A stretch of 64,000 bases of DNA from Lingula anatina (lineage: Eukaryota > Animalia > Brachiopoda), in contig CM120643.1 of NCBI GenBank assembly GCA_051362555.1, positions 28,896,848 to 28,960,847 on the forward strand, given 5' to 3'. The position numbers were made by a program, and so were the translations under genes. Positions 3,601 to 61,460 of the stretch are shown piece after piece (positions within the stretch are counted from its first letter, which is position 1; each line of letters begins with the position of its first letter). Below the pieces are notes generated by a model. It was not told the DNA's origin and made no database searches. It was given only the letters and a program-made list of their open reading frames with translations.

Positions 3601-5281
3601 GAAAGAAAAGGTTCAGTTCAGTTTCAACTGTGGTGTCTGGGGGTGGCTTAAGGTGGAAATTAAACTGCCAAGAAAAATAATATCAAATTTTCAATTTAAA
3701 TATAAAAATGTGTGCCATTATATAACATTTACCACACAGAAAAACCAGGAGGGAGCCTCAATGTTGTATCAAACAATGACACCAGGTGTGACAGGCCAGC
3801 TATATGTATAAAGCTTACAGAAAGTACAGAACAAGCCTGCATTGATGACAGAAAAATAAACCCCTCAAACAGCCAAACAGTCAAACCAGGAAGTAACCTC
3901 AAAATGTTATTTAACATTGACTACAGGTACAATAACCCTCTAACTCAATTGAAACAGGGTGAGAAAACAATATCCACCTCAGGTAAACCAAAGTCTACAA
4001 GAGCACAGGCTGTTGGACATAAAAGAAAACACTCAATTTCTTCAAGATCAGGGTTTTAGAAGATCACCGTGTGCTGTGGCACATGGACGTTACCATGTTC
4101 CTGTTCATTTTTGCCATGGGTTTCAGCACTAGAATGAATCTACCTGTTGAGGCACAGGTTACAGGTGAGTCCAATTAAAAAAAGACAACATCCAACTGTT
4201 TGACGGATAAAAGGCCCCAGGTTAGTGCAATAGAATATATGTAAATTATAAATGTTAGCAATAAAACAGAATTTAAATATTATAACATTCCCTTACAAGA
4301 CATGTGGATGGTGCCCACCCAGACATTTGTTGTCTTTATATCTTTGCAATCTGGTTGGACAAGGGAAATTCATTACTTTTGACATATACATATCTGCACA
4401 ATTATCTAATATATCTTTACCTTAATAACTATTTCCAAACTATCTACTGCCTTCATAAAGTTCAGACTTCTTAAAACTTTATCCAAACGACTTTTTAAAA
4501 GTTTGTGCAAACTTAATAGAAAATATGAGTTAAAAATATTCCACATCATATTTTAGAACAATCCATCATCATCAGTGTCACTTTAACTTCTCTATATTTG
4601 CTCTTGCAGAAATGTTTAGAAGGTCAAGCTGTAAAGGAGATGCCATGGTTCTCATGTGTCCCCAAGGGTCCAGTATCACAGTACTTGAGGCTGTGTATGG
4701 TTACACATTATCAACAGACCACAACTGTGCTGAGGGCAGTCCACCATACTGCAATGTGAACCTCCCAACTGACATACAGCTTACCTGTGATCACAAAGAA
4801 AACTGTACTTTTATTGCAGAATCCAGACATGCTTCATATTGGTTAGGTTGTCCATATAACTTGACCAACAACCTTATTGTTACTTATACCTGCTCTGGGA
4901 TGACACTAACAACTAAAACAACAACAGTGTCTTCCTCCTCACCAGCCACCATTACAGTATACCCAACATACCGCTTTACTTCCCCAGTATCTGCTACAAG
5001 TGCACAGAAAACAACAGCAACAGAGACAGCAAAGCAAGGAAATCCTGAAACAGCCCTTCCTTTTACTAGTTCTATTACAATTATAGGTACTATTTCTGAT
5101 ACTTTAGGATCCACAGTAAACACTTTAAATCCTATAAGAAACTTAAGGATTGATGGAATTCAATGTATGTAATGTAACTTAATACAAGGTCATCAACTTA
5201 TGAGTTAATGCTATTAATTCATAAAAATACATCAGGACAAAGGTGACAGCAATATTGCATTTTTGGTAAAAACTATGACAT

Positions 5282-5352
<71 letters not shown>

Positions 5353-8300
5353 TAGATAACAATTTGAGTCTTTTACAGCACAGTATATCCACTGTTTTAG
5401 GTGCTGTCATTGGAGGCACAATTGGAGCCATATCATTGGGGCTGCTGATTTTTAACATAGCTGCTATCTGCTATATAATCAGGTAAATTAAACTTTGAAC
5501 TTTTTCACTTTCTTTAAAAACTTTATCTGTAACAGGAGCAAGGGAGGGCCCCAAAGACCTGAAATGTTTTCAGAACCAAAACTATGTGTGCTAGTCTTCA
5601 AACCTCTTCCTCAGTTCTGTTGCAAACAAGGCTAAAATGGCAAGCTGAGTCTCAAAGCCCTATACAAATGTGTCATAGGTCATGTGACTTTGAGCCCATT
5701 CCCACAGATCTATCTCCCTGGGGAGTCTCACTAAATTGCTGTCAACATGACCGGCTTAAAGTCTGTCAGACCCGGTAAAGCTGTAAGGGGGAAATTATCT
5801 TTATCTCCTAGGTGATTCGGTAGGCATGAAAGACACATAAGCCAGTTATTTGATAGCAATTTAGTGAGACTCCCCAGAGAGTTAGGTCAATTCAGATGGA
5901 TCGATCTAAGTATGGGAACCCAGTCTTAGTGTCTGCTTTTTTCATATCTAAAAAGGTCTAAAGAAGAAGAACATTTACCTAATTAAAAAATAATCTTATA
6001 AAAGTCAGCTGTATCTGAGGATTTTTTTCTTTACCATTGTAGAAAGAAAAGATCTGAAGAAGCTTTACCCAAATCTCCCGACCATTCTGACCAGACCCAT
6101 GGCAACCAAGATAGCAGTGAGGGTGGGGAAAATGTTTATGCACAGTTAGGAGAGCAGGAACCCCAGCAACAATACACTGAGCTTGAACTCCAGAGAAGAG
6201 GTACTCAGTTCTACGAAGAGAAAGAGAGACAGTACGTGAACCAAGCTTTAGCCCAATCTTCGGACTTTTCTGACCAAACCCACTGGAATCAGGCTGATAG
6301 AGAAGGTGGTGAAAATGTTTATGCACAGTTAGGAGAGCAGGAACCCCAGCACCAATACACTGAACTTGAACTCCAGAGAAGAGGTACTCAGTTCTATGAA
6401 GTGAACGAGAGACAGTACGTGAACCAAGGTTTTCAAATGGGTGTTGCTGACAGCCATGGCATATAAAATCAACTTTTTCAAGATCAAACTGATGATACCC
6501 AGAAAATGGACCTACATGAAATCATAACAGCTGAATGTCAGAAGGAACATATCTATATTACGAACATATTTACCAATAGTATACACAACTGTATGGGACA
6601 GTATATACAAGGCAGCAAAGCTGTCAAATGTACAGACAAAAAGCACATAATAAAGATGCACAAAATATATAATTTTGTCCATTTTGATGCAATAATGCTT
6701 ATAACAGCACAAAATAATAATATATAATGCTTAACAGCATAAGCACCATTACTATTGCTTATATGTGGATATATAGAAAATGATACTTGACGCACAGAGC
6801 TTAAGGTGGATGGGAATGAAAAGTCACATCTTGAAAATGCCATTTTGAAAAATGAAAAAAGGAAACATTACAAAAATATTCCAATAAAGCTGCTATTCAG
6901 TGTAGCCATGTTAATATGATATGAATCATCCCACTTGAGTTTGAAGATAATAAGGCACAGACATCTGTGTCTGTACATAAAAACTGGTACTTCAAAACAG
7001 ACCAGCTACATGTATAAAGCTTATTTATGTACAGAACCTGCACCGATGACAACAATGACAAACCACGCAAAGTTCAAATGAACAATGTTCTTTTTTTGTG
7101 ATGCCAAACAGTCAAACCAGGAAGTAACCTCAAAATGATATTTAACATTGACTACTGGTCCAACAATCCTTCAAATCATTTGAAACAGACTTTACACATC
7201 TCAAGTAAAACCAAAGACTACAAAAACAAAAATTGTTGGACACACGATAAAACACTCAATATCTTCAAAATCAGAGTGTAATAAGATCATTATTTGCTGT
7301 GGAACATGGAAGGCAGGTTTCTTGTAATTTTTGTCTTGGGTTTGAGCATTAGACTGGATGTATCTGGTGGGGCACAGGTTACAGGTGAGTGGAACAGAAG
7401 TCAATATAAGTAAATAAACACAGCATTCTTTTATGGAGCATATGGATGATGCCCACACATATATTTATAGACAATCTTCATATTGGGAGTGTTGCAATTT
7501 AGTTTGATGGGGGAATTTTTGAGAAACTTCTGACATATTTTCAGCACAAATGTCTGTGGTAATCCACTCAAAGTATCAACTGTATTCACTATGCTAAAGT
7601 TTTTCAAAACTTTATGGAAATAATGTTTACAGTTTGTGTACACTTTACTGAAAATATGTGTAAAAAACAAATATTCCATGAACTGTTTGTTATAAAACTT
7701 ATGTTAGAACAATATATACTGTCAATGTCACTGCAAATACTTTCTCTGTTTTTGTTTTTGCTCTTGCAGGTAATATTACAGTAGCAAGCTGTGAGGGAGA
7801 TGTCTTGTTTCTTATGTGTCCCCCAGGGTATCATATCACAGTACTTAGGGCAGTGTATGGCTACACACTATCCACACACAATAACTGTTCTGAGGGAAGC
7901 ATGCCAGAGTGTAACAGAAACCTACCATTTACCATACAGTTGTTCTGTGATAACAGAGAAAACTGTAGTTTTTTAACAGAAGCCAGATTTGTGCCACAAG
8001 GGTCTGGTTGTCCATCTAGCAGAACCAACAACCTTATGATTACATATACCTGTTCAGGGATAACAACAACAACAACAACAACAACAGTGTCTTCCTCCTC
8101 ACCAGCCACCATTACAGTAGCCCCAACATACCACCACACTTCTCTAGTATCTACAACTTTGGTTACTGCTACAAGTACACAGAAAACAACAGTGAAAGAG
8201 ACAACAAAGCAAGGAAACACAGAAACAGCCCTGTCTTTTACCAATTCTATTACCATTATAGGTACTATTTCTGATACTTTAGGATCCACAGTAAACACTT

Positions 8301-11300
8301 TAAATCCTATAAGAAACTGAAGGATGCATACAAAGTCAATTTTTTGTCACAAAAACCAACCAAATGCCAGCATATAGTTTTAAGTAGTATAACTAAGAGA
8401 ATTGCAGAAAGGCAATGTTTAATTTTACCCGAAAATGATGTTTGAACGGGATTTTTCTGCTAGTAGTAGGCTTGTTAAGGACCAAAAAATGGACAAACGC
8501 TGTGTGACGATGTAGTGTGTTAGCTGAGATTATTTTATATTGCTACCGGTAGATGTCTCTGTAAGTAAAGTGTTGTCCGGTGTGCAAGTTTGAATCTCTC
8601 CCGTGATTGGTAACCTAAAGGTAAAACTGTTCACTGTATAGTTGGTTCTGATTGGTAAACGTGTACTATCTGAACTTGTATATAAGGTGTAACGTGAAAT
8701 AAATCGGTCTCTTTGGCTTCTCTCTCTAGCCTCTTTGCGGCTGACTCTTTGGCTCTTTGGCTTCTTTGCGGATCTTTGAGACTCTCTCTATTTATACTCT
8801 GAGACACCAGTAAGTAGCCTACATTGTTATTTGTACCTTCATAAGGCACTCGGCCGCGAAGGCGTAACAATTGGCGCAGCCGACAGGATAGAGTTTGTGT
8901 TGCTTATTAATTGACAGGATAGAATTTTGTGAAGCTAACGTTGTCAATTTACGGGATAGAATTTGTGTAGCTTGTGTAGTTAGAGGATAGAATTAGTAGT
9001 TATTAGTGATATTGGAATTTTTGAAAAGCTTTGTGTATGGCTGAGTGAGAGTTGGAAAGATAGTGACACGTGTTAGTCGGGACTTGTTGCAAGACGCGAA
9101 CTAGTCGGAACATATTGCAGTGATATTTCATTTTCATTGTTGTTTGATACTCGCGGCAATTCAGTAAATATTGTCAAAGTAGTATTCATTTTAGTAGTTT
9201 AGAGATATTTTGTATTAATTTTCTGTTGTGAAACTACACCTGCGGAGATATAGTGGACCACGTGTACTGAGAAGTAGTCGGAAAGACCACGTGTACTGAG
9301 TAGTAGTCGGACAGACCACGTGTAATTACAGGCCAGTGCGTGTAGAGCCTTATGTTGTAATTGGAATACAGAACATAATTTAGTGAGTTTATTTACAAAG
9401 AAAAGCATTTATTTAAAATAAAGGTTTCAAATTTGTGTTTTTCACTGACTTGCTGAATGAAGGAGTGATTGTGAATTGTTTATTGTATATTTTTATCAAT
9501 ATTGCAATAGCATATATTGATAGAGTACTATTCTACCTTGTTCGTCTGTGTTGAAAGTGTTTCATCATAGGTGTACATGTGAGTAGGTTGAATAGTGTGA
9601 GAAATTTGTTTGTATTTACTGTGAAGTTTAGTAGTGGCTTTTTGCTGAAACTTTCTTCAAACAGTAAAGTGTGGTAGTGGTGAAAGTATTTTATTGTGTA
9701 GTTTTTGTGGCACAGCTGCATTGCTATTATCAATAAAATTGTGTAATAGGTTGTGGGAAACTGGAAGTGAAAATGGCGTCGGGTAACGTAGAAAGCAGTG
9801 TTGTGTTGAATGTGCAGACAGCGTCTGAGACAGAATTGAAAAATTTGAAAGGAATTGGTCCAGTGAAAGCTCATAGATTGGTGTCTTTGAGAAATCAAAA
9901 AGGAAAATTGCTGTTGAGTGATTTGGAAGAAATCACTGGTATTAGTGTAGCAGAATGGCAGAAATGGGAAAAGAAGGGTAATGTGATTCTGGGTGTAATG
10001 GAAGAAAAAGATGGTTCAAAAGTTGGAGATGAAAAAAAGGAAGAGAGTGTGAATTGGGAAGAAAAGTATAGAAAGTTGATGGAGCGAGTGAAGGTACAAA
10101 ATGAAATGATATCAAATCTTCGAGATGAGGTTGAAGAAGCTGGAGAAAAGATGGAATTTTTATCAAGTGAATTGGAGATAAATGATGCTAAAGTGAAAAA
10201 GTTGGAAAATGAAAAGAGTGAATGGGAAAAAGAGAAATATGCTTTGGAAAATGAAAAGTATAGTTTGGAAAATGAGAAGTGTGATTTGAAAAATGAAAAT
10301 GATATGTTGAAAGAAAGAAATGTGAAAATTCAGAGTGAGTTGGGAAAAACTAAACAAGTGTTGATGAAAAAAGAAATGGAAATGGAAGAAGAGTGTCGAG
10401 AGTATTCCACAAAAGAAATGATGTTACATACACAGGTTGAAACACAGAATGAATTGTTGAGAAAACGTGTAGAAAGTTTGCAGAAGTGTGAAATTGAAAA
10501 AATGGATTTGAAATTGCAATTGGATGAGATGACAGCCCGTCATGATCATTTGCAAATTCAGTATGAAAGAATGCATTTACAGCATGATTTAGAAAAAATT
10601 CCAAGGCCAACTCCTAGAAATATTAAAACTACTAGACCCACACCTGCACCTAGAAGTAGTAAAAAGAAAAGTTTGGAAACCCCTGTGAAAAAACCAATAC
10701 TGAAACTAGCAGAGAGTGAAAGTGATAGTGAAAGTGAAAGTGAATCTGAATGTGAACAGAAAAGAGTTCCTTTAGTTGAAAGAGAAAAAGGACCTGTTCA
10801 TAAAATGCCTAGTTTTAGTGGGAATGGAAGAGAAAATTGGGAAGCTTTTGTATTTAAATTTGAAGGAATGGCAGAAAGATACGGATGGAATGATAAAAGA
10901 AAAACTAGCAGAATGATTGAATGTTTGGAAGACAGAGCTCTTGAGTATGCGGTGGAGTTTGGAAACTGCAAATATAAACGTTTGAAAGAAGTGATGTCAA
11001 AACGTTTTAGTATGAAAGAGTCTGCTTCATCTGCGCGTAGAGCACTTCAATCAATGAGGCAGGGTGAAAGTGAATCTTTGCAAGATTTTTCTCATCGTGT
11101 GTTCATGGCATCTAGAGAGGGATATGCAGAAGGTGGTGAGGGAATAGCTGTGGATTCATTTTTGAGAGGGTGTCGTGACAAAGAATCTGCAAAATTGGCT
11201 ATGGATAAAGAGCCTAAAGATTTATTTGAAGCGTTAGAGTTTGTGAAAGTTGCAAACAATAACTTCAAAGCTGTGTATGGTACAGGTGGAAGAAATGTGC

Positions 11301-14300
11301 ATATTAGACAAGTTGGAATGTCTGATCAGAGTGTGGAGAATGGAAGTGGAAATCAATTACTCTACAACATGCAAAGAACCATGTCTGCAATGTGTGATCA
11401 GATGAAAAGAATGAATGACACATGGGTGTCACCGTCAAATTCTCAGAGAAATTCTGGTAGAATGATAAAGTCGCCCCAGAATGGAAACATAAATCAAAGT
11501 AGAGGGGGTCCACCACAATGTTTTAAATGTGGAGAAAGAGGTCATGTTCAAAGGGATTGTAAGAATGAAAATGTAGAACATCCACCTAATCCCAATGTTA
11601 GTAAAAATGCCAGCCCAAGTTCTATTTTGATTTGTAATAAATGTGGACAAAGAGGTCACATTCAAACAAATTGCCCTCAAAATAGAGAAATGCCAAAGAA
11701 TCCTCCTCCCGGTGCAAGAAATTCGGTAAACTAGAACGGGACGAATTGACCGACCGGATTTCGGATCCCTTACTTCATGTTGAAGGTCGGATTATGGATA
11801 GTGGAAATGTGAAAATGATGAATGTTGGAGAGTTAGTAGGAGAAAATTTTGTGATTCCTGTTAGTGTAGGTGGTGTGAAAACATTAGCAGTTGTGGATAC
11901 GGCAGCTCAATTTACTATCGTAAATAAAAGATTTTATAGTAAATTGCAGGGTGTGCCTGAGTTTTGTGAGAATTTGAAATTAATGCTTGCTGGAAAAAAT
12001 GCATTTATGATGGGTCATAGAGTAGAAAATTTGAGTATTGAGATAGATGGGATAGAGTATAAGGAAAATGTGTATGTTGCAGATTTGCAAGAAGGAATTG
12101 ATATGTTGTTGGGATTGAAGTTTTTGAAGGAGAGAAATTGTGTGGTGAATTTAGTTGATCAAACATTGATCATTGGAGAGAAATGTGTGCAGGGAAGCAT
12201 AGAAGTTGAAGGTGACTCTGATTTGAGTAAAGTGAATGGTGAGACAGAAGCTAAAAGTGATGAGAGATGTGTTGATGAAATGGAGAGAGAAGTTGAAATT
12301 TGTGAAAATATGGTGAGAACGAAAAAGAGAATAGTAGTTCCTCCATTGACGGTGATGAAAATTTCTGTTTGTGCAGATTATGAGTTAGAGAAAAAGAAAG
12401 AGTATGTGATAGAACCTTGTGTTGATAGACAAGTGTTGGTATCTTGTGCATTAGTTAAAGGTGATGATGTTGTTCCTATAGAGATAGTGAATGATGGAGA
12501 AAGAAATGCTGTTTTGAAAGCAGGTAGTGTGTTAGGTGTTATTAAGGAAGTTGAGACAGTTGATTCTGAAGTGAGATGTGAAGATGTAGATGGAAAAGCT
12601 AGGGTGTCTGCTGTGAATAAAGTTGAAATGAAGTTGAATATAGATGAAAATGTGGATGAAGAAGAAGTGATGAGAAGTTTGAAAAGAGATTTGCCTGAAC
12701 ATTTGCAAAATTTATTTGAAAGGTCAAGTGAGGATCTTGATTCAAATGAAATGGTTGCATTGTGTGAAACTTTGAGAGATTATGAAGATGTATTTGCAAA
12801 GCATGATCTTGATTTAGGATGCATGAAAGGTGTTAAGCATACTATTAACACTGGTAGTGCAGCTCCTGTGAAACAGAAATTGCGTAGAACTCCATTGGGA
12901 ATGGAAGGAGAAGAGAGAAAGATGCTTGAAAAGTTGTTAGCTTCTGATGTTATTCAGCCATCAAATTCTGAATGGGCATCCCCACCAGTATTGATAAGAA
13001 AGAAAGATGGAAGTGTTAGATGGTGTGTGGATTATAGGGAATTAAATAAGAAAACTATCAAAGATTCTTATCCTATTCCAAACATTGGTGATTGTTTAGA
13101 TTGTCTGGCTGGAAATCAATTTTTGAGTTTGATTGATATGGCTCAAGGATATTTTCAAATTGAAATTGATGAGAAAGATAGAAATAAAACTGCTTTTATC
13201 ACCAGATATGGTCTGTATGAGCATAAGAGAATGGCTATGGGACTTACCAATTCTCCTGCAAGTTTTTCGAGAGCAATGCAGTTAGTATTGAGAGGTTTGA
13301 CTTGGGAGAAAGTGTTGGTGTATCTGGATGATATCACAGTGTTGGGAAAGAATTTTGAAGATCATCTTAAGAATTTGAAAGAGGTTTTGGAGAGATTGCG
13401 TTCTTACAACTTGAAGTTAAAGCCTAAGAAATGTTTTCTTTTCCAAACAAAGTGTGAATTCTTAGGAAAGTCAATCAGTAGAGAAGGTGTTGGTATAACT
13501 GAGAGTAAAGTTGAGTGTGTTAAAAAGTGGCCAGTACCTACAAACAAAAAGGAAGTTGAAACATTCCTTGGTTTCATCAATTATCATAGAGATCATATTC
13601 CTCAATTTGCTGAGAAAACTGCTTGTTTGTATGAGTTGACAGGGATTAAAAGTGTTTTCAATTGGTCAAATGAACATCAAATAGCATTTGAAAGTTTAAA
13701 ACAAGAGTTAACAACTGCCCCTTGTTTAGCCTTTCCTTTGTCTGAAGGTGAATTTATACTTGATACAGATGCATCATATTCATGTATAGGAGCAGAACTT
13801 TCACAGATACAACATGGTGAAGAGAAGGTTATTGCTTATGGAAGTAAAATTATGTCACCTATACAGCGGCGTTATTGTACAACTAGAAAAGAGCTCTTGG
13901 CTGTTGTAAACTTCTGTAGACAATATAGACATTATTTGTTGGGAAGAAAGTTCAGAATCCGAACAGATCATCATAGTTTAGTGTGGTTGTTAGGATTTAA
14001 AAACCCAGATGGTCAGTTAGCAAGATGGTTAGAAGAATTATCTCAATATAATTTTACCATTGAACATAGACCAGGAAAGAAGCATGGAAATGCAGATGCA
14101 TTATCAAGAATACCTTTAGCTATGAAAGTGTGTGATTGCTATAAGGTGGGAGTGAAATTGAGTGACTTACCCTGTGAAGGATGTCATTATTGTCAGAGAG
14201 TACATAAAAATTGGTCAAGGTTTGAGACTGATGTGAATGATGTAATTCCTCTGGGAAATAAGAAATCAGATGACAATGTAGTTGAATTGAATGTAGTTGG

Positions 14301-17300
14301 TGATATGAGAAATGAAACAAATTGTGAGAAATTGAGTTCAGTTTTGATGTGTCAGAGGGCTGATACAAATGATAAAACTGACAAGAATGAAAGAGATGAA
14401 TTATGCAATTGGTTGAAAGGATATGACTTGAAAAAATTGCAGAGAAAAGATGCAGATTTGAAAATACTCATAGGTTGGTTAGAGAATGGTGAACCTAAAG
14501 AATCAGAGTTGTATTTGTGTAGTATGGCAGTAAAAGGATTGTGGAATTGCAAAGAGCAGTTGATTCTTTTGAATGATGTGTTATATTACAAATGGGAAGA
14601 AAGAGAGGATAGAAATTTGTGTTTAATTGTACCAAAAGATTTGGTCAATGAAGTTTTATTTTTCTGTCATGATTCAAAAACAGCTGGTCATTTTGCTTAT
14701 GAGAAAACTTTGCAAAAACTCAAACAATCATTCAAGTGGCATGGAATGAATAGAGATTGTAAATTGTATGTAAGTTCATGTGAACTTTGCAATAAAAACA
14801 AGCATAGTACTGTTCGACCAAAAGCCAAAATGAAATTACATCATGCAGGATTTCCTATGGAAAAGGTTCATTTAGATATACTTGGACCATTTACACAAAG
14901 TGAATTTGGAAATTCTTATATTTTGGTGATGATAGATCAGTTTACTAAATGGATAGAGTGTGTGGCATTGCCAAATCAGACAGCTGAATTAGTAGCAAAA
15001 GCATTTTTTGAAAAATTCATAGTTACTTTTGGTTGTCCACAAGAGATATATACAGATCAGGGTTCAAATTTTCAAAGTAGTCTATTTAGAAATTTGTGTA
15101 GACTATTAGAAATCAAACAACTTAGAACAACTGGTTTTAGAGCAAGTGCTAATGGACAAGTTGAAAGATGCATGGGTATTATTACACAGATGATTAGATG
15201 TAATGTAGAAGGGAATGTGAGATATTGGGATAGAGATTTACCTCAATTAGTTATGGCATTACATTCAACTGTGAATGCATCAACAGGGTTTACTCCTAAC
15301 ATGATGATGTTAGGGAGAGAAGTTTTTATGCCATTACACTTACTAACAGGTTGTGTGAATGAAAATTTGATACCATGTGATACTCATGAATGGTTGAGAA
15401 ACTTGAGTGAAAGCCTAAATAGATCACATGAAATGGCTAGAGAAAAATTGAAATGTGTGCAGAAACGTCAAAAACAATTGTACGATGCAAAGTTGAGAGA
15501 GAATGAATATACTTGTGGTCAGAAAGTATATTTGAAGGATGAAAGTCATAAAAAGGGAGAAAGTAAGAAACTTAGACCCTTATATAGAGGACCATATGAG
15601 GTTATCAAAGCATCCCCACCTCTCTATACAATAAAAGATAAAAAAGGAAAAATCCAAGTGGTACATCATGATAGATTGAGAAAATTTGTTGAAAGAGAGA
15701 GTGATTTTCAATTGAATGAACCACAATTGGTAGAACCAATTGTAAAAAGATCAAGATTTGGTAGACAAATTAAAATGCCATCTCATTTAAGAGATTTTGC
15801 GTTAGAATGATCATATTGATGTATATTTAGTTTATTAGTCAAGGTATAGTTGTATATAAATACTTCCTTAATTTTCGGCAGTGCTGAAATAAAAGGAATT
15901 TAATTTAATTTATTTATTTGTATTTTTTTTATTTTTTTTATTTAGAACATGGATGAATCAAACATTATGCACATCTGGGAAGAAGAGTTTCAATGGTGCA
16001 CAGATTGGGTTGAATCTCCAGAACGTTTATATATACTCTCAATCAGAAACATTGAAATAAAAAGTTCAAAACAAGCCAAAATAATCATCCATTTAGGAAA
16101 AATATGGAGAGAGAGATGTTTGTTAGAGACGGGTTATGATTGGTTCATGGACCACGAGAAAGAAATAAACAAAGAATTATCTAAAGAAGATTGTATTGAT
16201 ATTATTTGTTATCTCAGAGACAAACTCTATCAGTATTAAAATATTAGAAAAAATAAACAAGATAATAAAGATATATTTGATGAAGTATATTATAGTTTGT
16301 ACTTCCTATTATATTTCAGGTAATTTGATCAAAACAACAGTCCAAGTTGGTATAGGTTTTCTAAATATTTGTTCGAATTTTATTGTTGAGCATGTTACAT
16401 TGAGCACTGCATGAATAGATTGATAGCTACTTTTGTTTTTTTTTTTGGATTATGGTTATTAAAAAAAAAAAAAAAAAAAAAAAAATTACCTAACATAGTT
16501 ACACTGTTCAAACTAATATGTTGCAGTTGAGCATGTGTTTTGCATGTAAGGTAATTGGATTGGATATTGTTAAGGTAATTTTTTCTTATTATATATTTTC
16601 ATGATAAAGTTTTTCATAGATTTAATATAAAAAGCAATTTAACTTTGCTTTTGATTTGAATAATTGTACATAGTTAATGCGGCAATGCTGTGTTACTATG
16701 TTAGTAATGTAATGCTATGCTGATAGTGTAATACTGTGTTGATAATGTAAAATTATGTTAATATTCATTTGAAAGAAAAGCTCATTATCATGTATGTTCA
16801 TTCAAGAAAATAAACCATTGTATAAGTTTATTTCAGATATGGATGATCTAGACATGTTAGATGAAGCCTGTTTTGTCCCGGATTATGATGACACTGATTT
16901 GGTGGAAGATCCTACTGTCCTAATTGGTGAAGAGGGGGAGGAAGTTACCCACTCAAAGTGCAGAGGGGAGGAACGGAGGAGAGAAGTCCTGTGTGGTTTG
17001 TGTCTGGTGTCCAGTGCTGACCTGAGTAGACATCTTGGACGTCATGTGAAATCTGTTCATTTGCCATGGTATATGACTCCAGGATTGGTGTGCTGGTATT
17101 GCAGATCGATGGAAAAGGACAATTCGCTTTTACGTAAACGTCATGGTGATGTTCATTTGTGTGGAACTGGTGAATTCGAGGAAAAACTGTGGATCCAGTT
17201 GGTGAATGGATTTATACATTTCCTGATATTGACATTAAATATGAGAAATATATGGGAGCTGATGGACTATGTGAAAAGTGAAGGACTAGTAATGTTGCCA

Positions 17301-20300
17301 GATAACTGTTCCAAGGAGGACATTAACTTTGTGAAAATATACATTCATGGAAATGGTATGGAGCCTAAGACTGAGATTCTGAATTCTTTGTTGACTTTGT
17401 TTCACTGGAAAACTTTGTATCATCTGTTACAAAAACTTTCATCAGAGGATCGTGAACTCTGTAGTCATTGGTATCGGCGGATGAAATTTACTTTGCTACA
17501 TGGATGAAAAATGAACTATATAATGATTTTGACATTTCACATTGACATTGTTATCATTAATAATGTTGTTTTGAGCAACTTTGAGTTAAAATCACTTTGT
17601 TTGCTTTTAAAGTTGATTTAAAGTGATAATGGATTTAAAACTTTGTTTTGCATTCCTAAGGATGGACATTTATGCTGAGAGATGGACTTGATTGACTTTG
17701 CTTGTGTTAAAGATAAATGTTGAATCTTGGCATAACAAGAATGACTTATTTGCATTACTTGCGTATTTTAAATGTAAAGTACCATTTCAGTTGTTGAATT
17801 ATAATAATTATTAGTTTAACAATTTAAAGTAATGGTTTATATTGTAATAATAGGGGGGAGTTTTGTTCGTCAAAAGGGGGGAGAGTGTGACGATGTAGTG
17901 TGTTAGCTGAGATTATTTTATATTGCTACCGGTAGATGTCTCTGTAAGTAAAGTGTTGTCCGGTGTGCAAGTTTGAATCTCTCCCGTGATTGGTAACCTA
18001 AAGGTAAAACTGTTCACTGTATAGTTGGTTCTGATTGGTAAACGTGTACTATCTGAACTTGTATATAAGGTGTAACGTGAAATAAATCGGTCTCTTTGGC
18101 TTCTCTCTCTAGCCTCTTTGCGGCTGACTCTTTGGCTCTTTGGCTTCTTTGCGGATCTTTGAGACTCTCTCTATTTATACTCTGAGACACCAGTAAGTAG
18201 CCTACATTGTTATTTGTACCTTCATAAGGCACTCGGCCGCGAAGGCGTAACAGCTGCATTTTGTAGTACAAATGTCTAACTTGGCATAAATGTTCCTTGG
18301 GCCAAAAGAAATTTTTTTATCCAAAGAGACGTGCTCTATCGATGCATAAATTAGCATAAATTATGCAAATTGGGTGCCAAAATATATTATATTTCACATT
18401 TCAATTAATTTTTGGCCTAGAAACATGTACAGATTATCAAACCTGACTAAATTAGGGACAAGGAACCCATTTTTGATCATTGGAAGCAACTGGTGGCCAT
18501 TTTGTGCCTCAAATCCAAGATGGCCGCCACCTGCACTTTTGAAAGTGGACCTTATTTTTGCTATTTTATGTTGAATTTTGAAGCGTTTGGTCTATATATA
18601 CTTGATATATATATCGATTCCTACCATTTTGGGGATGCAAAAGTCATTTTTGATATTGTTATGGTGATAGTAGGTGATTTAAAGGGACAAAGAGGGTGTT
18701 TTAAGTGCCTACCAAGATATGTGTGAACGCTGCAAAACCATGGATATTGATAACCCGTATTCAAATATATCTCAATGCAATTTTTGTGATGTACCTGTAT
18801 AACCATCGCTATTGGACTATATTATGAGCAAAAAACAAATTTCACCATTATGGAGGCCATTGGTGGCCGTTTTATCCCTCAAATCCAATATGGCCGCCAA
18901 AAACCATTTTGAAATTGCACCCTCTTTGGCCCTTCAAATTACCTACTATCATCAAAACAATATCAAAAATGCATCCCCAAAATAGTAGGAATCGATATAT
19001 ATATAAAGTATATATAGACCAAACGCTTCAAAATTCAACATAAAATAGCAAAATTATGGTTTACATGTGTTACTGGGAATCCACGCTCCACCGATGCCTG
19101 GTTCGTATGTACCTTTAAGGATTGGTGGAATTCAATGTATGTAATATAACTTGATACAACATAATCAACTTTTAGCCTTGTTTGCATAAAAAACTGGTAC
19201 CTCAAAACAGACCAGCTACATGTATAAAGCTTATAAATGTACAGAACCTGCACTGACGACGACAATGACAAACCACTTAAACTTTGATTGAATTATGTTC
19301 TTCTTTGTTGTGCCAAACAGTCAAACCAGGAAGTGACCCCAAACTGATATTTAACATTGACTACAGGTACAGCAATCCTTTAAATCAATTGAAACAGGCT
19401 TAAACAGCAATATACTTCTCAAGACTACCAAAGTCTACAAAACCAAAAATTGTTGCACACATGAAAAAACGCTCAATTTCTTCAAAATCAAAGTGTAATA
19501 AGATCAATATTTGTTGAGGAACATGGAAGGCAGGTTTCTTGTAATTTTTGTATTGGGTTTGAGCACTAGACTGTATGTATTTGTTGGGGCACAGGTTACA
19601 GGTGAGTAGAACCAGTGTATGAAATGGCCGCCAGCCCGCCAGCCCGAGGCTGGTAACTTTCAGGCCGGGCGGGTAAGATTTACAAATTACCCGCCCGACG
19701 GGCTGGCTATTTTTATAGCCTATTTTCAACTTTTATTTTGTCTATGTTCACAAGCGATTTCAGCAAAATATCAAACCAACTCACTGTTTTCACCCACTTT
19801 CATAGAAGCAAAGAACTAACCATAGCTTGCAATCGAACGCTCATATCGAAATGTAACCAAGTCTCCCTCTCAGTGGCCTAGTTTTCAAAGTTCCGTCTGT
19901 GTTATATGAAGTTGAAAGACAATTTGAAACGAGGCACATTGTTCTTAACCAGCTTCAGTGCACAGTAGATAACGTTACGTCATTGTTTTGTGTAGAGGAG
20001 ATACCACGAGTAGCAATTTGTAGGTTGAGAGTTATAAAAATGTGAAAATATAAAAAGTTATGATATTGATTAAATAGACTTACAGGTACATGAAGTGCTT
20101 ATAATCAACAGTAACTAGAGGATCAGAGAGGCGATACCGCCTCCGAATATTGTACCACCAGCTGGAGTAAGCGCATTCGTATAGACCCCCACATACACAA
20201 AATAAGGGACAAAGCCACCAGTCTTGTGCTTGACAAGCTGTAAAAATGCAATCAACAAGAATTTTCAAAATATGCAAAAAATATATATAACTAAAAATGG

Positions 20301-23300: not shown

Positions 23301-24346
23301 AAGTCAATATCAGTAAATAAACACAGCATTCCTTTATGGAGCATATGGAAGTTGCCCACACATATATTTTAAGTTAATTCTTCTTATTGGGAGTTTTGCT
23401 ATTTAGTTTAATGGAGGAAATTCAAAACTTCTGACATATTTTCAGCACAGATGTTTACGTTAATCCCTGCAAAGTATCAAATGCATTCAGATTTTTCAAA
23501 ACTTTATAGAAATGGCATTTCTACAATTTTTGCACACTTTATAGAAAATATGAGTAAAAAGCAAATATTACATTCACTAGCTGTTTGTTATAAAATATAT
23601 GTTATAAAACACACTGTCAATGCCACTGCAACTTCTTTCTCTGTTTCTGTTTTTGCAGGTCATATTACAGTATCAAGCTGTGAGGGAGATGTCATGGTTC
23701 TTATGTGTCCCCCAGGGTCCAGTATCACAGTACTTGAGGCATTGTTTGGATATACATTATCAACAAACAACAATTGTTCTGAGGACAGTATACCAGAGTG
23801 CACTAGAAACTTCCCAACTGACACACAGTTGCTCTGTGATCACAGAGAAAGCTGCAGTATTATTGCGGTGTCCAGATATGTGTCACCTGGGCCTGGTTGT
23901 CCATCTAACTGGACCAACAGCCTTATGATTACTTATACCTGCTCTGGGATGACAATAACATCTACAACAACAACAACAACAACAGCGTCTTCCTCGTCAC
24001 CAGCCACTATTACAGTCACCCCAACATACCAATTCACTTCCCCAACTCTGGTTACTGCTACTAGTACAAAAGAAACACCAGCAATTACAGAGACAGTAGA
24101 GCAAGGAAACCCTGACATAGCCCTGCCTTTTACTAGTTCTATTACAATTACAGGTACTATTTCTGATACTTTAGGATCCACAGTAAACACTTTAAATCCT
24201 ATAAGAAACTTAAGGATTGATGGAATTCAATGTATGTAATGTAACTTAATACAACATAACTTATGAGTTAATGCTGTTAATTCATAAAAATACATCAGGG
24301 CAAAGGTGACAGCAACAATGCATTTTTGGTAAAAACTGTGACATTG

Positions 24347-24403
<57 letters not shown>

Positions 24404-27400
24404 GATTTGAGTCTTTGAGTCTTTTACAGCACAGTATATCCACTGTTTTAGGTGCTGTCATTGGAAGCACATTGGGGGCCATATCACTGGTGCTGCTAAT
24501 TTTTAATATAGCTGCTATTTGCTATATATTCAGGTGAATTTAACTTTGAACTTTTTCACTTTCTTTAAAAGCTTTATCTGTAACAAGAGCCGTGAAGGGC
24601 CCCAAAGACCTGAAATGTTTTCAGAACCAAAATTATGAGTGCTAGTCTTCAAAGCTCTTTCTCAGCCCTGTTGCAAATAAGGCTAAAATGACAAGCTGAG
24701 TCTCAAAGCCCTATACATATGTGTCATAGGTCATGTGACTTCGACACCATTCCCACAGATATTTGGATCAATCTATCTCCCTGGGGAATCTGACTAAATT
24801 GCTGTCAACTTAACCGGCTTAAATGTCTGTCAGACCCGGTAACGCTGTTAGGGGGTAATTATCTGTACCTCCTAGGTGATTCAGCAGGCGTGACAGACAT
24901 ATAAGCCGGTTATTTGATACACGTAGCAATTTAGTGAGACTACTCAAAGAGTTAGATTGATTCAGATGAATCGATCTAACTATGGGAACCCAGTCTTAGT
25001 GTCTGCTTTTTTCATATCCAAAAAGGTCTAAAGAAGTAAAACATTTACTTCATTAAAAAATAATCTTATAAAAGTCAGCTGTATCTGAGGATTTTTTTCT
25101 TTACCATTGTAGAAATAAAAGATTTGAAGCTTTACCCAAATCTCCCGACCATTCTGACCAGACCCATGGCAACCAAGATAGCAGTGAGGGTGGTGAAAAT
25201 GTTTATGCACAGTTAGGAGAGCAGGAACCACAGCAACAATACACTGAACTTGAACTCCAGAGAAGAGGTACTCAGTTCCACAAAGAGAACGAGAGACAGT
25301 ACGTAAACCAAGCTTTACCCCAATCTTCAGACAACTCTGACCAAATCCACAGGAATCAGGCTGATAGAGAAGGTGGTGAAAATACTTATGCACAGTTAGG
25401 AGAGCAGGAACCCCAGCACCAATACACTGAACTTGAACTCCAGAGAAGAGGTACTCAGTTCTACGAAGTGAACGAGAGACAGTACGTGAACCAAGGTTTT
25501 CAAATGGGTATTGCTGACAGCCATGGCATATAAAATCAACTTTTTCAAGATCAAACTGACGATACCCAGAAAATGGACCTATATGAAATCATGACAGCTG
25601 AATGTCAGAAGGAACATATCTATATTACGAACATATTTACCAATAGTATACACAACTGTATGGGACAGTGTGAACAAGGCAGCTGTCAAATGTACAGACA
25701 AAAAGCACACAATAAAGATGCACAAAATATATCATTTTGTCCATTTTGATGCAATAATGCTTATAACAGCACAAAATAATAATACATAATGCTTAATAGC
25801 ATAAACACCATTACTATTGCTTATGTGGTAATACAGACAAATGTTACTTGTACAGAGCTTCTGGTGGATGGGGGTGAAAAGTCACATCTTGAAAATGCCA
25901 GTTTGAAAAATGAAAATTTAAAAAAGGAAATATTACCAAAATATGCCAATAAAGCTGCTATTCAATCCAGCTGTATTGACATGATATGAATCCCACTTGA
26001 GTTTGAAGATAATAAGGCACAGACATCTGTGTCTGTACATAAAAATTAGTACTTCAAAACAGACCAGCTACACGTATAAAGCTTATAAATGTACAGAACC
26101 TGCATTGATGACAACAATGAAAAACCACTCACAGTTCAAATGAACTATGTTCTTTTTTGTTATGCAAAATAGTCAAACCAGGAAGTAACTTCAAAATGAT
26201 ATTTAACATTGACTACTGATCCAACAATCCTTCAAATCAATTGAAACAGACTTTACACATCTCAAGAAAACCAAAGTCTACAAAAACAAAAATTGTTGGA
26301 CACACGATAAAACGCTCAATTTCTTCCAAATCAGAGTGTAATAAGATCATTATTTGCTGTGGAACATGGAAGGCACATTTCTTTTTATTTTTGTCTTTGG
26401 TTTGAGCACTAGACTGGATGTATCTGGTGGGGCACAGGCTACAGGTGAGTGGAACAGACTAGTAAGAAGTTTTAACTATTATACTAAAATATAAGTAGAT
26501 AAATATGGCCTTCCTTTATAGGACATACGGATGTCTTCATATTCTGAGTGTTGCTGTCTGGTTTAATGGAGGAAATTCAAAACCTACTAACATATTTTCA
26601 GCACAAATGTCTATGGTAATCTATTCAAAATATCAACTGTACTTGTTGAGCTCAGATTTTACAGAAACCATGTTTCTACAGTTTATGCACAATTTATAGG
26701 AAATATGTGTAAAAAACAAATATTCCATGCACTGTTTGTTATGAAATTTACAGAACAATACACTGTCAATGTCACTGCAACTTCTTTCTCTGTTTTCATT
26801 TTTGCTCTTGCAGGTCATATTACAGTAGCAAGCTGTGAGGGAGATGTCACAGTTCTTATGTGTCCCCCTGGGTTCAGTATCACAATAACTGAGGCATTGT
26901 TTGGCTACACACTATCCACAGGCAACAACTGTTCTGAGGGAAGTATACCAGAGTGCAATAGAAACCTACCAGCTACCATAAAACTTATCTGTTATAATAG
27001 AGAAAGCTGCATTTATATCACAGAAAGCAGAATTGTGCCACAAGGGTCTGGTTGTCCATCTAGCAGGACCAATAAACTTATTGCTACATATACCTGCTCA
27101 GGTATGACAATAACAACAACAACAACAGTATCGTCTTTCTCACCATTACATCAGCCACCATTACAGTTACCCCAACATACCAACTCACTTCTCCAGTATC
27201 TACAACTCTAGTTACTGCTACAAGTACACAGAAAACAACAGTGACAGAGTAGCAAAGCATGAAAATCCTGAAACAGCCCTGCCTTTTACTAGTTCTATTT
27301 TCAGTACAGGTGCACGGGGAACTATTATTTCTGATACTTAAGGGGCCAACAGTAACCACAAGAACACCTACATGATATAATCTAAAGTATTTCATGTAAT

Positions 27401-42064: not shown

Positions 42065-61460
<19,396 letters not shown>

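What the first reader, a model, noticed from the sequence alone, without database searches (positions are those of the whole stretch)
9773..9990. Gypsy Gag with an N-terminal ComEA-like helix-hairpin-helix DNA-binding domain
Seen: Gag starts VVLNVQTASETELKNLKGIGPVKAHRLVSLRNQKGKLLLSDLEEITGIS, followed by a ~200-aa coiled coil. Established: iNiNtAs.eeL..LpGIG...A..Iv..R...G.f....dL..v.Gi is the HHH_3 signature of ComEA, EEPD1 and Tex, a sequence-independent dsDNA-binding module that is not a standard Gag part. Inference: a captured domain that may tether capsids to chromatin or bind and shield cDNA.
Basis: partly seen in the sequence, partly recalled or inferred. Interest (0 to 1): 0.78.

Follow-up and report, generated by a model that had tools for sequence, protein, structure and literature searches.

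The report
Retrotransposon capsid with DNA-gripping arm
The capsid protein of a young, intact jumping gene starts with a bacterial-style helix-hairpin-helix fold that most of its full-length relatives also carry, and it likely uses this fold, on a predicted long stalk outside the capsid, to hold on to host chromosomes.

Summary
Confirmed. The Gag (9773-11734) of an intact Ty3/Gypsy element (8503-18252, identical LTRs, 4-bp TSD; host probably Lingula) begins with a ComEA-type HhH domain (Pfam HHH_3, E 3e-8, above cut-off; modelled fold nearest ComEA). It is no local capture: 84 of 148 related Gags carry it at the N-terminus (41 of 42 with a long N-terminus), it co-diverges with the capsid domain, and copies show purifying selection (12 of 17 changes synonymous). 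New here: only the first hairpin is intact (it keeps the residue matching ComEA K164); the second hairpin's GhG is absent in 84 of 84. A 175-residue heptad coil follows and is predicted to dimerise in parallel. By capsid geometry the domain should face outward, so tethering to host chromatin by avidity is my best reading (0.45); shielding packaged cDNA is unlikely; a protein-binding role stays open. DNA binding is untested, and donor and named Gypsy clade are unresolved. Six literature searches found no description; Repbase, Dfam and GyDB could not be searched. This scan noted the same layout before in a sea-urchin element (e1-7881707).

The parts
8499..8502 (+). 5' target-site duplication GCTG
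   Evidence: same four bases follow the 3' LTR
8503..8869 (+). 5' LTR, 367 bp, TG...CA
   Evidence: identical to the 3' LTR
8872..8889 (+). primer-binding site starting TGG, 2 nt after the LTR; tRNA type not tested (Ser-like by recall)
   Evidence: sequence
9773..11734 (+). gag ORF, 653 aa
9803..9988 (+). ComEA-type HhH domain, Gag residues 11-72 (four helices closed by a short strand pair)
   Evidence: Pfam HHH_3; PDB sequence hits; model pLDDT 85-97 over the core; fold matches
9851..9871 (+). first hairpin, residues 27-33, G-I-G-x-x-K-A; K32 aligns with ComEA K164
   Evidence: alignment to 8dfk, numbering checked against K193/K197 in PMC9747964; family counts
9938..9946 (+). second hairpin, residues 56-58, degenerate (G-I-S; most often h-P in relatives)
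   Evidence: GhG in 0 of 84
10049..10573 (+). coiled coil, residues 93-267, predicted parallel dimer
   Evidence: 3.5-residue periodicity above 2000 of 2000 shuffles; single helix 95-265; dimer model
10574..10804 (+). disordered linker with a basic cluster and an acidic Ser-rich run before CA
   Evidence: pLDDT under 50; sequence; family pattern
10805..11278 (+). capsid domain, residues 345-502
   Evidence: Foldseek PNMA2 capsid E 2.9e-5, dArc, Arc, Ty3; Retrotrans_gag weak
11516..11677 (+). two CCHC zinc knuckles (nucleocapsid)
   Evidence: Pfam zf-CCHC, 2 stretches
11686..15810 (+). pol ORF in the -1 frame, 1374 codons stop to stop: protease, RT, RNase H, integrase
   Evidence: RT-RH best PDB match Ty3 RT E 1e-76
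15949..16239 (+). 96-codon ORF of unknown standing
   Evidence: no Pfam hit
16839..17507 (+). extra 3' ORF, 222 aa, Cys/His zinc-finger-like motif, no family
17872..17885 (+). polypurine tract
17886..18252 (+). 3' LTR
18253..18256 (+). 3' target-site duplication GCTG

Best explanation
The Gag of this intact Gypsy element begins with a ComEA-type helix-hairpin-helix domain shared by most full-length relatives, which is predicted to sit as a pair on a coiled-coil stalk outside the capsid and likely grips host chromosomal DNA without sequence preference, docking the particle near its integration target. Shown: the domain, its clade-wide inheritance with the capsid domain, purifying selection, one intact and one degenerate hairpin, the heptad coil. 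Predicted: parallel dimer of the coil (about 26 nm at 1.5 A per residue, recalled figure). Inferred: outward position (from Ty3), weak binding per domain made strong by many copies, action when chromatin is exposed (cell division or after nuclear import through the basic cluster before CA), and that the arm stays on the capsid after protease action.
For: First hairpin kept: h-G in 69 of 84 and h-G-x-x-[KR] in 54 of 84 HhH-bearing Gags; K32 matches ComEA K164, whose loss abolishes DNA binding (PMC9747964). Present in 81 of 97 relatives with at least 200 residues before CA, always starting within the first 40 residues; 0 of 1628 shuffled or reversed controls hit. 12 of 17 substitutions among copies in codons 1-72 are synonymous against 0.21-0.32 expected, p 1e-3 to 1e-5. 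Dimer model of residues 8-268: score 0.51, best of 3 controls 0.06, runs agree in at least 94% of contacts, pLDDT 82; the mark was reached by 21 of 30 solved pairs and 0 of 23 single chains of microbes, 17 of 29 pairs (animals 7 of 16) and 0 of 30 single chains of eukaryotes, but by only 1 of 7 without an older solved relative, so a coiled coil may pass by likeness. Ty3's N-terminal extension runs outward from the shell (PMC6525542). Precedents: Kid/KIF22 binds dsDNA and chromosome arms through a coiled-coil dimer plus HhH tail (PMC13581288); EEPD1's HhH domains bind only with avidity (PMC12988330); MLV p12 and foamy Gag tether capsids to nucleosomes (PMC6021111 abstract).
Confidence: 0.45

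Rival explanations
1. The domain kept the HhH fold but now serves as a protein-binding or assembly module (a matrix substitute) that contacts a host factor such as a histone tail, a transport protein or other Gag molecules, not DNA.
For: Second hairpin lost in 84 of 84; new conserved features not in the ComEA-like control repeats, W62 in 68 of 83 and P or S at 58 in 56 of 79; median net charge -1. HhH domains mediate protein pairing in XPF-ERCC1 and Mus81-Eme1 (PMC12988330). Other relatives hang Macro or ubiquitin-like domains on the same arm, as expected of a host-facing platform.
Against: The surface residue that ComEA needs for DNA binding is K or R in 58 of 82, the most conserved non-core position, which a pure protein-binding role does not explain. 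The model shows no HhH-HhH contact.
Confidence: 0.27
2. The domain binds the element's own nucleic acid: unassembled Gag uses it to capture or export genomic RNA, or it holds and shields cDNA ends after the shell opens.
For: Cer1 uses a protein that shares Gag's N-terminal peptides for nuclear export of genomic RNA (PMC10309623). EEPD1 protects DNA from nucleases with HhH domains. Tex, an HhH protein, is among the fold matches. 44 of 84 relatives have a basic cluster just before CA.
Confidence: 0.2
3. A recent or local capture, or a passenger domain without function.
For: 24 of 108 relatives with at least 150 residues before CA show no HhH, including a Mytilus coruscus gene model.
Against: Negatives are single scattered tips on the capsid tree (24 changes for 24 rows; 9 for 9). 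One of them, P0012, is a short call whose cluster mate P0168 has the domain, and 4 more show weak remnants at E 0.001-0.07. The capsid nearest neighbour is among the top 3 HhH neighbours in 38 of 80 against 3 expected. Purifying selection among copies.
Confidence: 0.05

Closest known systems
ComEA DNA-binding domain (Pfam HHH_3 PF12836; PDB 8dfk, 8dss, 2duy)
   Different: Second hairpin GhG and its lysines are lost; a Trp-bearing last helix; no membrane anchor or ComEA oligomerisation domain; 40 bits against the TIGR01259 cut-off of 152; fused to a retrotransposon capsid.
Chromokinesin Kid/KIF22 tail (PDB 2edu; PMC13581288)
   Same: Single HhH_3-type domain on a coiled-coil dimer (28.9 bits; Foldseek rank 2); the best functional analogue for a non-specific chromosome grip.
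   Different: No motor domain; domain is N-terminal; KIF22 keeps G-K after its second hairpin, Gag does not.
EEPD1 tandem (HhH)2 domains (PDB 9yi2; PMC12988330)
   Same: Homologous domains (33.2 and 27.1 bits); binding depends on copy number.
   Different: Two domains per chain plus an EEP dimer; not part of a mobile element.
MLV p12 and foamy-virus Gag chromatin-binding sequence (PMC6021111)
   Same: Gag-encoded tether between capsid and host chromatin: the role inferred here.
   Different: Short peptides that bind nucleosomal histones; no HhH fold is described in the abstract read; homology not tested.
C. elegans Cer1 Gag/CERV (PMC10309623)
   Same: Long Gag with an N-terminal coiled region in place of matrix, then CA and NC.
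PNMA2, Arc and Ty3 capsids
   Same: Capsid fold of residues 345-502.
   Different: None of the nearest Gag clusters listed by the ESM Atlas shows an HhH family among its common Pfam families.

Membership tests
Ty3/Gypsy LTR retrotransposon | Two LTRs with TG...CA ends and a target-site duplication | tested here: met
   367-bp identical LTRs, 4-bp TSD
Ty3/Gypsy LTR retrotransposon | PBS after the 5' LTR and PPT before the 3' LTR | tested here: met
   TGG-starting site at 8872, purine run 17872-17885; tRNA identity not tested
Ty3/Gypsy LTR retrotransposon | pol order protease, RT, RNase H, integrase; RT nearest Ty3 | tested here: met
Ty3/Gypsy LTR retrotransposon | Gag with capsid fold and zinc knuckles | tested here: met
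Named Gypsy clade (MolGy1-16, Mag, Osvaldo, Cer1 and others) | RT/RNase H tree position against reference elements | not testable with these tools
   No reference sequences could be fetched; a five-residue RT motif search found no sequence in four readable supplements of PMC6238403
HHH_3 / ComEA-type HhH domain | Pfam PF12836 above the gathering cut-off | tested here: met
   34 bits against 27
HHH_3 / ComEA-type HhH domain | Fold like ComEA DNA-binding domain | tested here: met
HHH_3 / ComEA-type HhH domain | First hairpin G-h-G with basic residue matching K164 | tested here: met
   G27-I28-G29, K32; 54 of 84 relatives h-G-x-x-[KR]
Canonical two-hairpin (HhH)2 DNA-binding domain | Second hairpin G-h-G with following lysines | tested here: not met
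   G-I-S here; GhG in 0 of 84, h-G in 2 of 84
Canonical two-hairpin (HhH)2 DNA-binding domain | Sequence-independent dsDNA binding | not testable with these tools
   needs EMSA or similar
ComEA protein (TIGR01259, TIGR00426) | Score above curated cut-off | tested here: not met
   40.1 against 152.35; 30.5 against 53.1
Kinesin-10 chromokinesins (KIF22/Nod) | Kinesin motor domain | tested here: not met
   no motor domain in Gag; works-like comparison only

The most novel reading that the evidence does not exclude
A large, old Gypsy lineage of marine invertebrates has replaced the retroviral matrix position with a chromokinesin-tail-like arm: hundreds of single-hairpin HhH domains on coiled-coil stalks coat the capsid and clamp it to host chromosomes by avidity, giving a retrotransposon its own capsid-borne DNA tether, with the stalk also serving as a slot for counter-defence modules (Macro, ubiquitin-like) in some branches.
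Probability: 0.3. Interest if true: 0.8.

Novelty: new variant of a known kind. Interest (0 to 1): 0.58.

Why it matters
How non-enveloped LTR retrotransposon particles reach host chromatin is known for few elements, and the known targeting modules sit mostly on integrase (recalled). A folded DNA-binding-type domain fixed at the Gag N-terminus of a whole clade points to a capsid-borne route, parallel to MLV p12 and foamy Gag but built from a different part, and it is testable with a 72-residue domain and one point change. It also defines a marker for an otherwise unnamed Gypsy lineage, and a natural single-hairpin HhH variant. If DNA binding fails, the domain is still a conserved, unexplained matrix substitute.

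Tried and rejected
No whole genome is held for the window, so copy number and insertion-site preference were not measured. Two word-index protein searches with Gag parts found nothing; the full HMMER search did. Locus searches gave 1 weak Gag locus and 4 distant RT loci and none in a second viral scan; none of the 5 loci has an HhH hit, but they are distant (29-39% identity) and some stop short of gag, so an RT-anchored count of the domain was not possible. The ESM Atlas gave only generic Gag clusters under 0.9 for the whole protein and prokaryotic or phage HHH_3 clusters (0.86-0.92) for the domain; leads only. Donor search: per-domain scores favour ComEA over EEPD1 and KIF22 and giant-virus ComEA-like proteins match weakly, but a 75-column tree leaves 50 of 82 forks open and has only one outgroup protein, so no donor is named. 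The wide VIA fold search was never available. The careful capsid tree did not finish; quick and FastTree trees were used. No RNA holder was listed by the run index. A frameshift hairpin after the gag stop folds no better than shuffles (161 of 200 as good). Cer1's 'helix-hairpin-helix' was considered as prior art and rejected. The review 10.1266/ggs.18-00024 is not held and was not seen; one scanned PDF and one slide file among the supplements of PMC6238403 could not be read and may bear on clade placement.

Full report

The element. The ORF is the gag of a full-length Ty3/Gypsy element at 8503-18252: identical 367-bp LTRs, a 4-bp target duplication, a PBS and a PPT, and an open 1374-codon pol in the -1 frame with protease, RT, RNase H and integrase (RT nearest Ty3). 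Identical LTRs and open frames mean a recent insertion. Gag reads HhH (11-72), short linker, one helix 95-265, a disordered linker with basic and acidic Ser-rich runs, capsid 345-502 (PNMA2 capsid E 2.9e-5) and two CCHC knuckles. The best relative is a Lingula anatina gene model, 154 of 183 residues identical, and the 3' ORF also hits L. anatina, so the host is probably Lingula; this is an inference. Ten DNA runs of one coded organism hold 24-60% of the element's words. Four of nine listed RNA runs were laid: 432, 51, 166 and 158 reads at 90% likeness or better; in the HhH bin the deepest run had depth 11.0 on one orientation and 3.4 on the other, the other three 0 to 2.4; no joint was listed in gag. 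The family is transcribed weakly; the reads are mostly from other copies.

Siblings. A full HMMER search with Gag found 2317 proteins at E<=0.001; I examined the best 150. Two were dropped for lacking a capsid match (the Lingula fragment P0005 and a ComEA-repeat protein P0135), leaving 148. Independently of my own profile, Pfam HHH_3 or HHH hits 33 of the first 81 at E<=0.001 (only those 81 and 24 more were scanned). A profile built from these sequences finds the domain in 84 of 148, always starting within the first 40 residues: 0 of 40 with under 150 residues before CA, 84 of 108 with at least 150, 81 of 97 with at least 200, 41 of 42 with at least 400; 0 of 1628 shuffled or reversed controls hit. 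Ranking by whole-protein score favours HhH carriers; among proteins that would rank without the domain the counts are 61 of 76 and 33 of 34. Negatives are scattered tips: 24 changes for 24 rows, no more clustered than shuffles (9 for 9). One negative is a short gene call whose cluster mate has the domain, and 4 more of the 24 show weak remnants; the other 19, a Mytilus gene model among them, could not be checked at DNA level. Median pairwise identity is 27% for HhH and 35% for CA among 80 rows; the CA nearest neighbour is among the top three HhH neighbours in 38 of 80 (3 expected); the Mantel test gives r 0.24, p 0.001, though the rank correlation is only 0.07, so the signal lies in near pairs. 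Eight CA subclades (41 rows) need 12 changes on the HhH tree against 28 for shuffles. This fits one old acquisition and vertical descent; it does not prove one origin. Among copies in four DNA runs, 12 of 17 substitutions in codons 1-72 are synonymous (0.21-0.32 expected; p 1.5e-5 to 1.1e-3), the same as in the next 84 codons (12 of 17); three of the five amino-acid changes are confined to one decayed copy.

What is kept and what is lost. In ComEA, K164 is the key DNA contact: the matching change abolishes binding in EMSA (PMC9747964, passages). Gag K32 aligns with it (numbering checked by the offset of K193 and K197). Across 84 relatives the first hairpin has h-G in 69 and h-G-x-x-[KR] in 54; position 32 is K or R in 58 of 82. 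The second hairpin has G-h-G in 0 of 84, against 6 of 6 in the ComEA-like control repeats, and the positions matching K193, K197 and K199 are basic in 8 of 83, 8 of 83 and 1 of 82. A tryptophan at 62 (68 of 83) and a glycine at 69 (60 of 82) close the fold. Median net charge is -1, range -7 to +5, +3 for this copy. So this is a single-hairpin variant, not a canonical two-hairpin domain.

The stalk. Residues 95-265 have 3.5-residue hydrophobic periodicity above all 2000 shuffles. Two copies of residues 8-268 fold as a parallel, in-register coil over 93-267: score 0.51, best of 3 controls 0.06, at least 94% of contacts shared between runs, pLDDT 82. The mark was reached by 21 of 30 solved pairs and 0 of 23 single chains of microbes, and by 17 of 29 pairs (animals 7 of 16) and 0 of 30 single chains of eukaryotes, but by only 1 of 7 without an older solved relative; coiled coils may pass by likeness. 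The HhH domains are not in the interface. A long charged helix is present in 52 of 84 relatives by a crude filter, and 44 of 84 have a basic cluster just before CA; the spacer varies from 74 to 565 residues in the 40 rows printed.

Mechanism. In the Ty3 capsid the N-terminal extension runs outward and over the shell (PMC6525542, passages), so an arm N-terminal to CA should face the cell, not the packaged genome. Kid/KIF22 binds dsDNA and chromosome arms with an HhH tail on a coiled-coil dimer (PMC13581288, passages); EEPD1's HhH domains do not bind alone and gain from copy number (PMC12988330, passages); MLV p12 and foamy Gag tether capsids to nucleosomes (PMC6021111, abstract). I therefore infer that pairs of single-hairpin domains on stalks give the particle an avid, sequence-blind grip on host chromatin before integration (0.45). 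Rivals: a protein-binding or assembly module that no longer binds DNA (0.27); binding of the element's own RNA or cDNA by unassembled or uncoated Gag (0.2), for which Cer1 is a loose precedent (PMC10309623, passages and section 7); a recent or idle passenger (0.05). Nothing here measures binding, localisation or protease processing.

Verdict. Real, conserved, clade-wide and apparently undescribed; function untested. New variant of a known kind; interest 0.58.

Noticed in passing
proteins P0081, P0115, P0151: Three related Gags carry a Macro domain between the HhH/coil and the capsid (PF01661 E 4.5e-9, 8.6e-26, 8.6e-20), in clusters of 5, 6 and 3 members; P0115 and P0151 keep the N-x-A-N, G-G and G-[IV]-F motifs. 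A possible ADP-ribose counter-defence module on a retrotransposon Gag.
   Followed up: partly
protein P0031: Gag with a ubiquitin-like domain at 190-260 between HhH and capsid (E 1.3e-4, below cut-off).
   Followed up: no
window 16839-17507 and 15949-16239 (+): Extra ORFs between pol and the 3' LTR; the longer has a Cys/His zinc-finger-like motif and no Pfam or PHROG family; its first 50 residues appear at the start of a Lingula gene model with VWD domains.
   Followed up: partly
window 11724-11734: gag ends in a G-GUA-AAC heptamer before the stop, with pol in the -1 frame; many relatives end in L-N, as a shifty site would give. The downstream hairpin is no better than shuffles.
   Followed up: partly
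window 46355-52400 (-): LINE with APE-RT ORF2 and an ORF1 that has a GDSL/SGNH esterase plus an N-terminal DnaJ-like stretch lacking the HPD motif (E 5.8e-6, just under cut-off).
   Followed up: partly
window 4534-5172, 7682-8320, 23412-24239, 26591-27211: Tandem cluster of SUEL rhamnose-binding lectin ORFs; the Gypsy element lies 182 bp after one of them.
   Followed up: no
window 8872-8995: The 3' part of the PBS (GGATAGA) recurs four times in the leader just downstream.
   Followed up: no
window 55183-56634: Array of 48-nt units with two open frames on the minus strand.
   Followed up: no
Pol residues about 205-290 (window about 12300-12560): A beta-rich spacer between protease and RT without a Pfam hit; resembles a degenerate dUTPase-like insert by recall only.
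   Followed up: no
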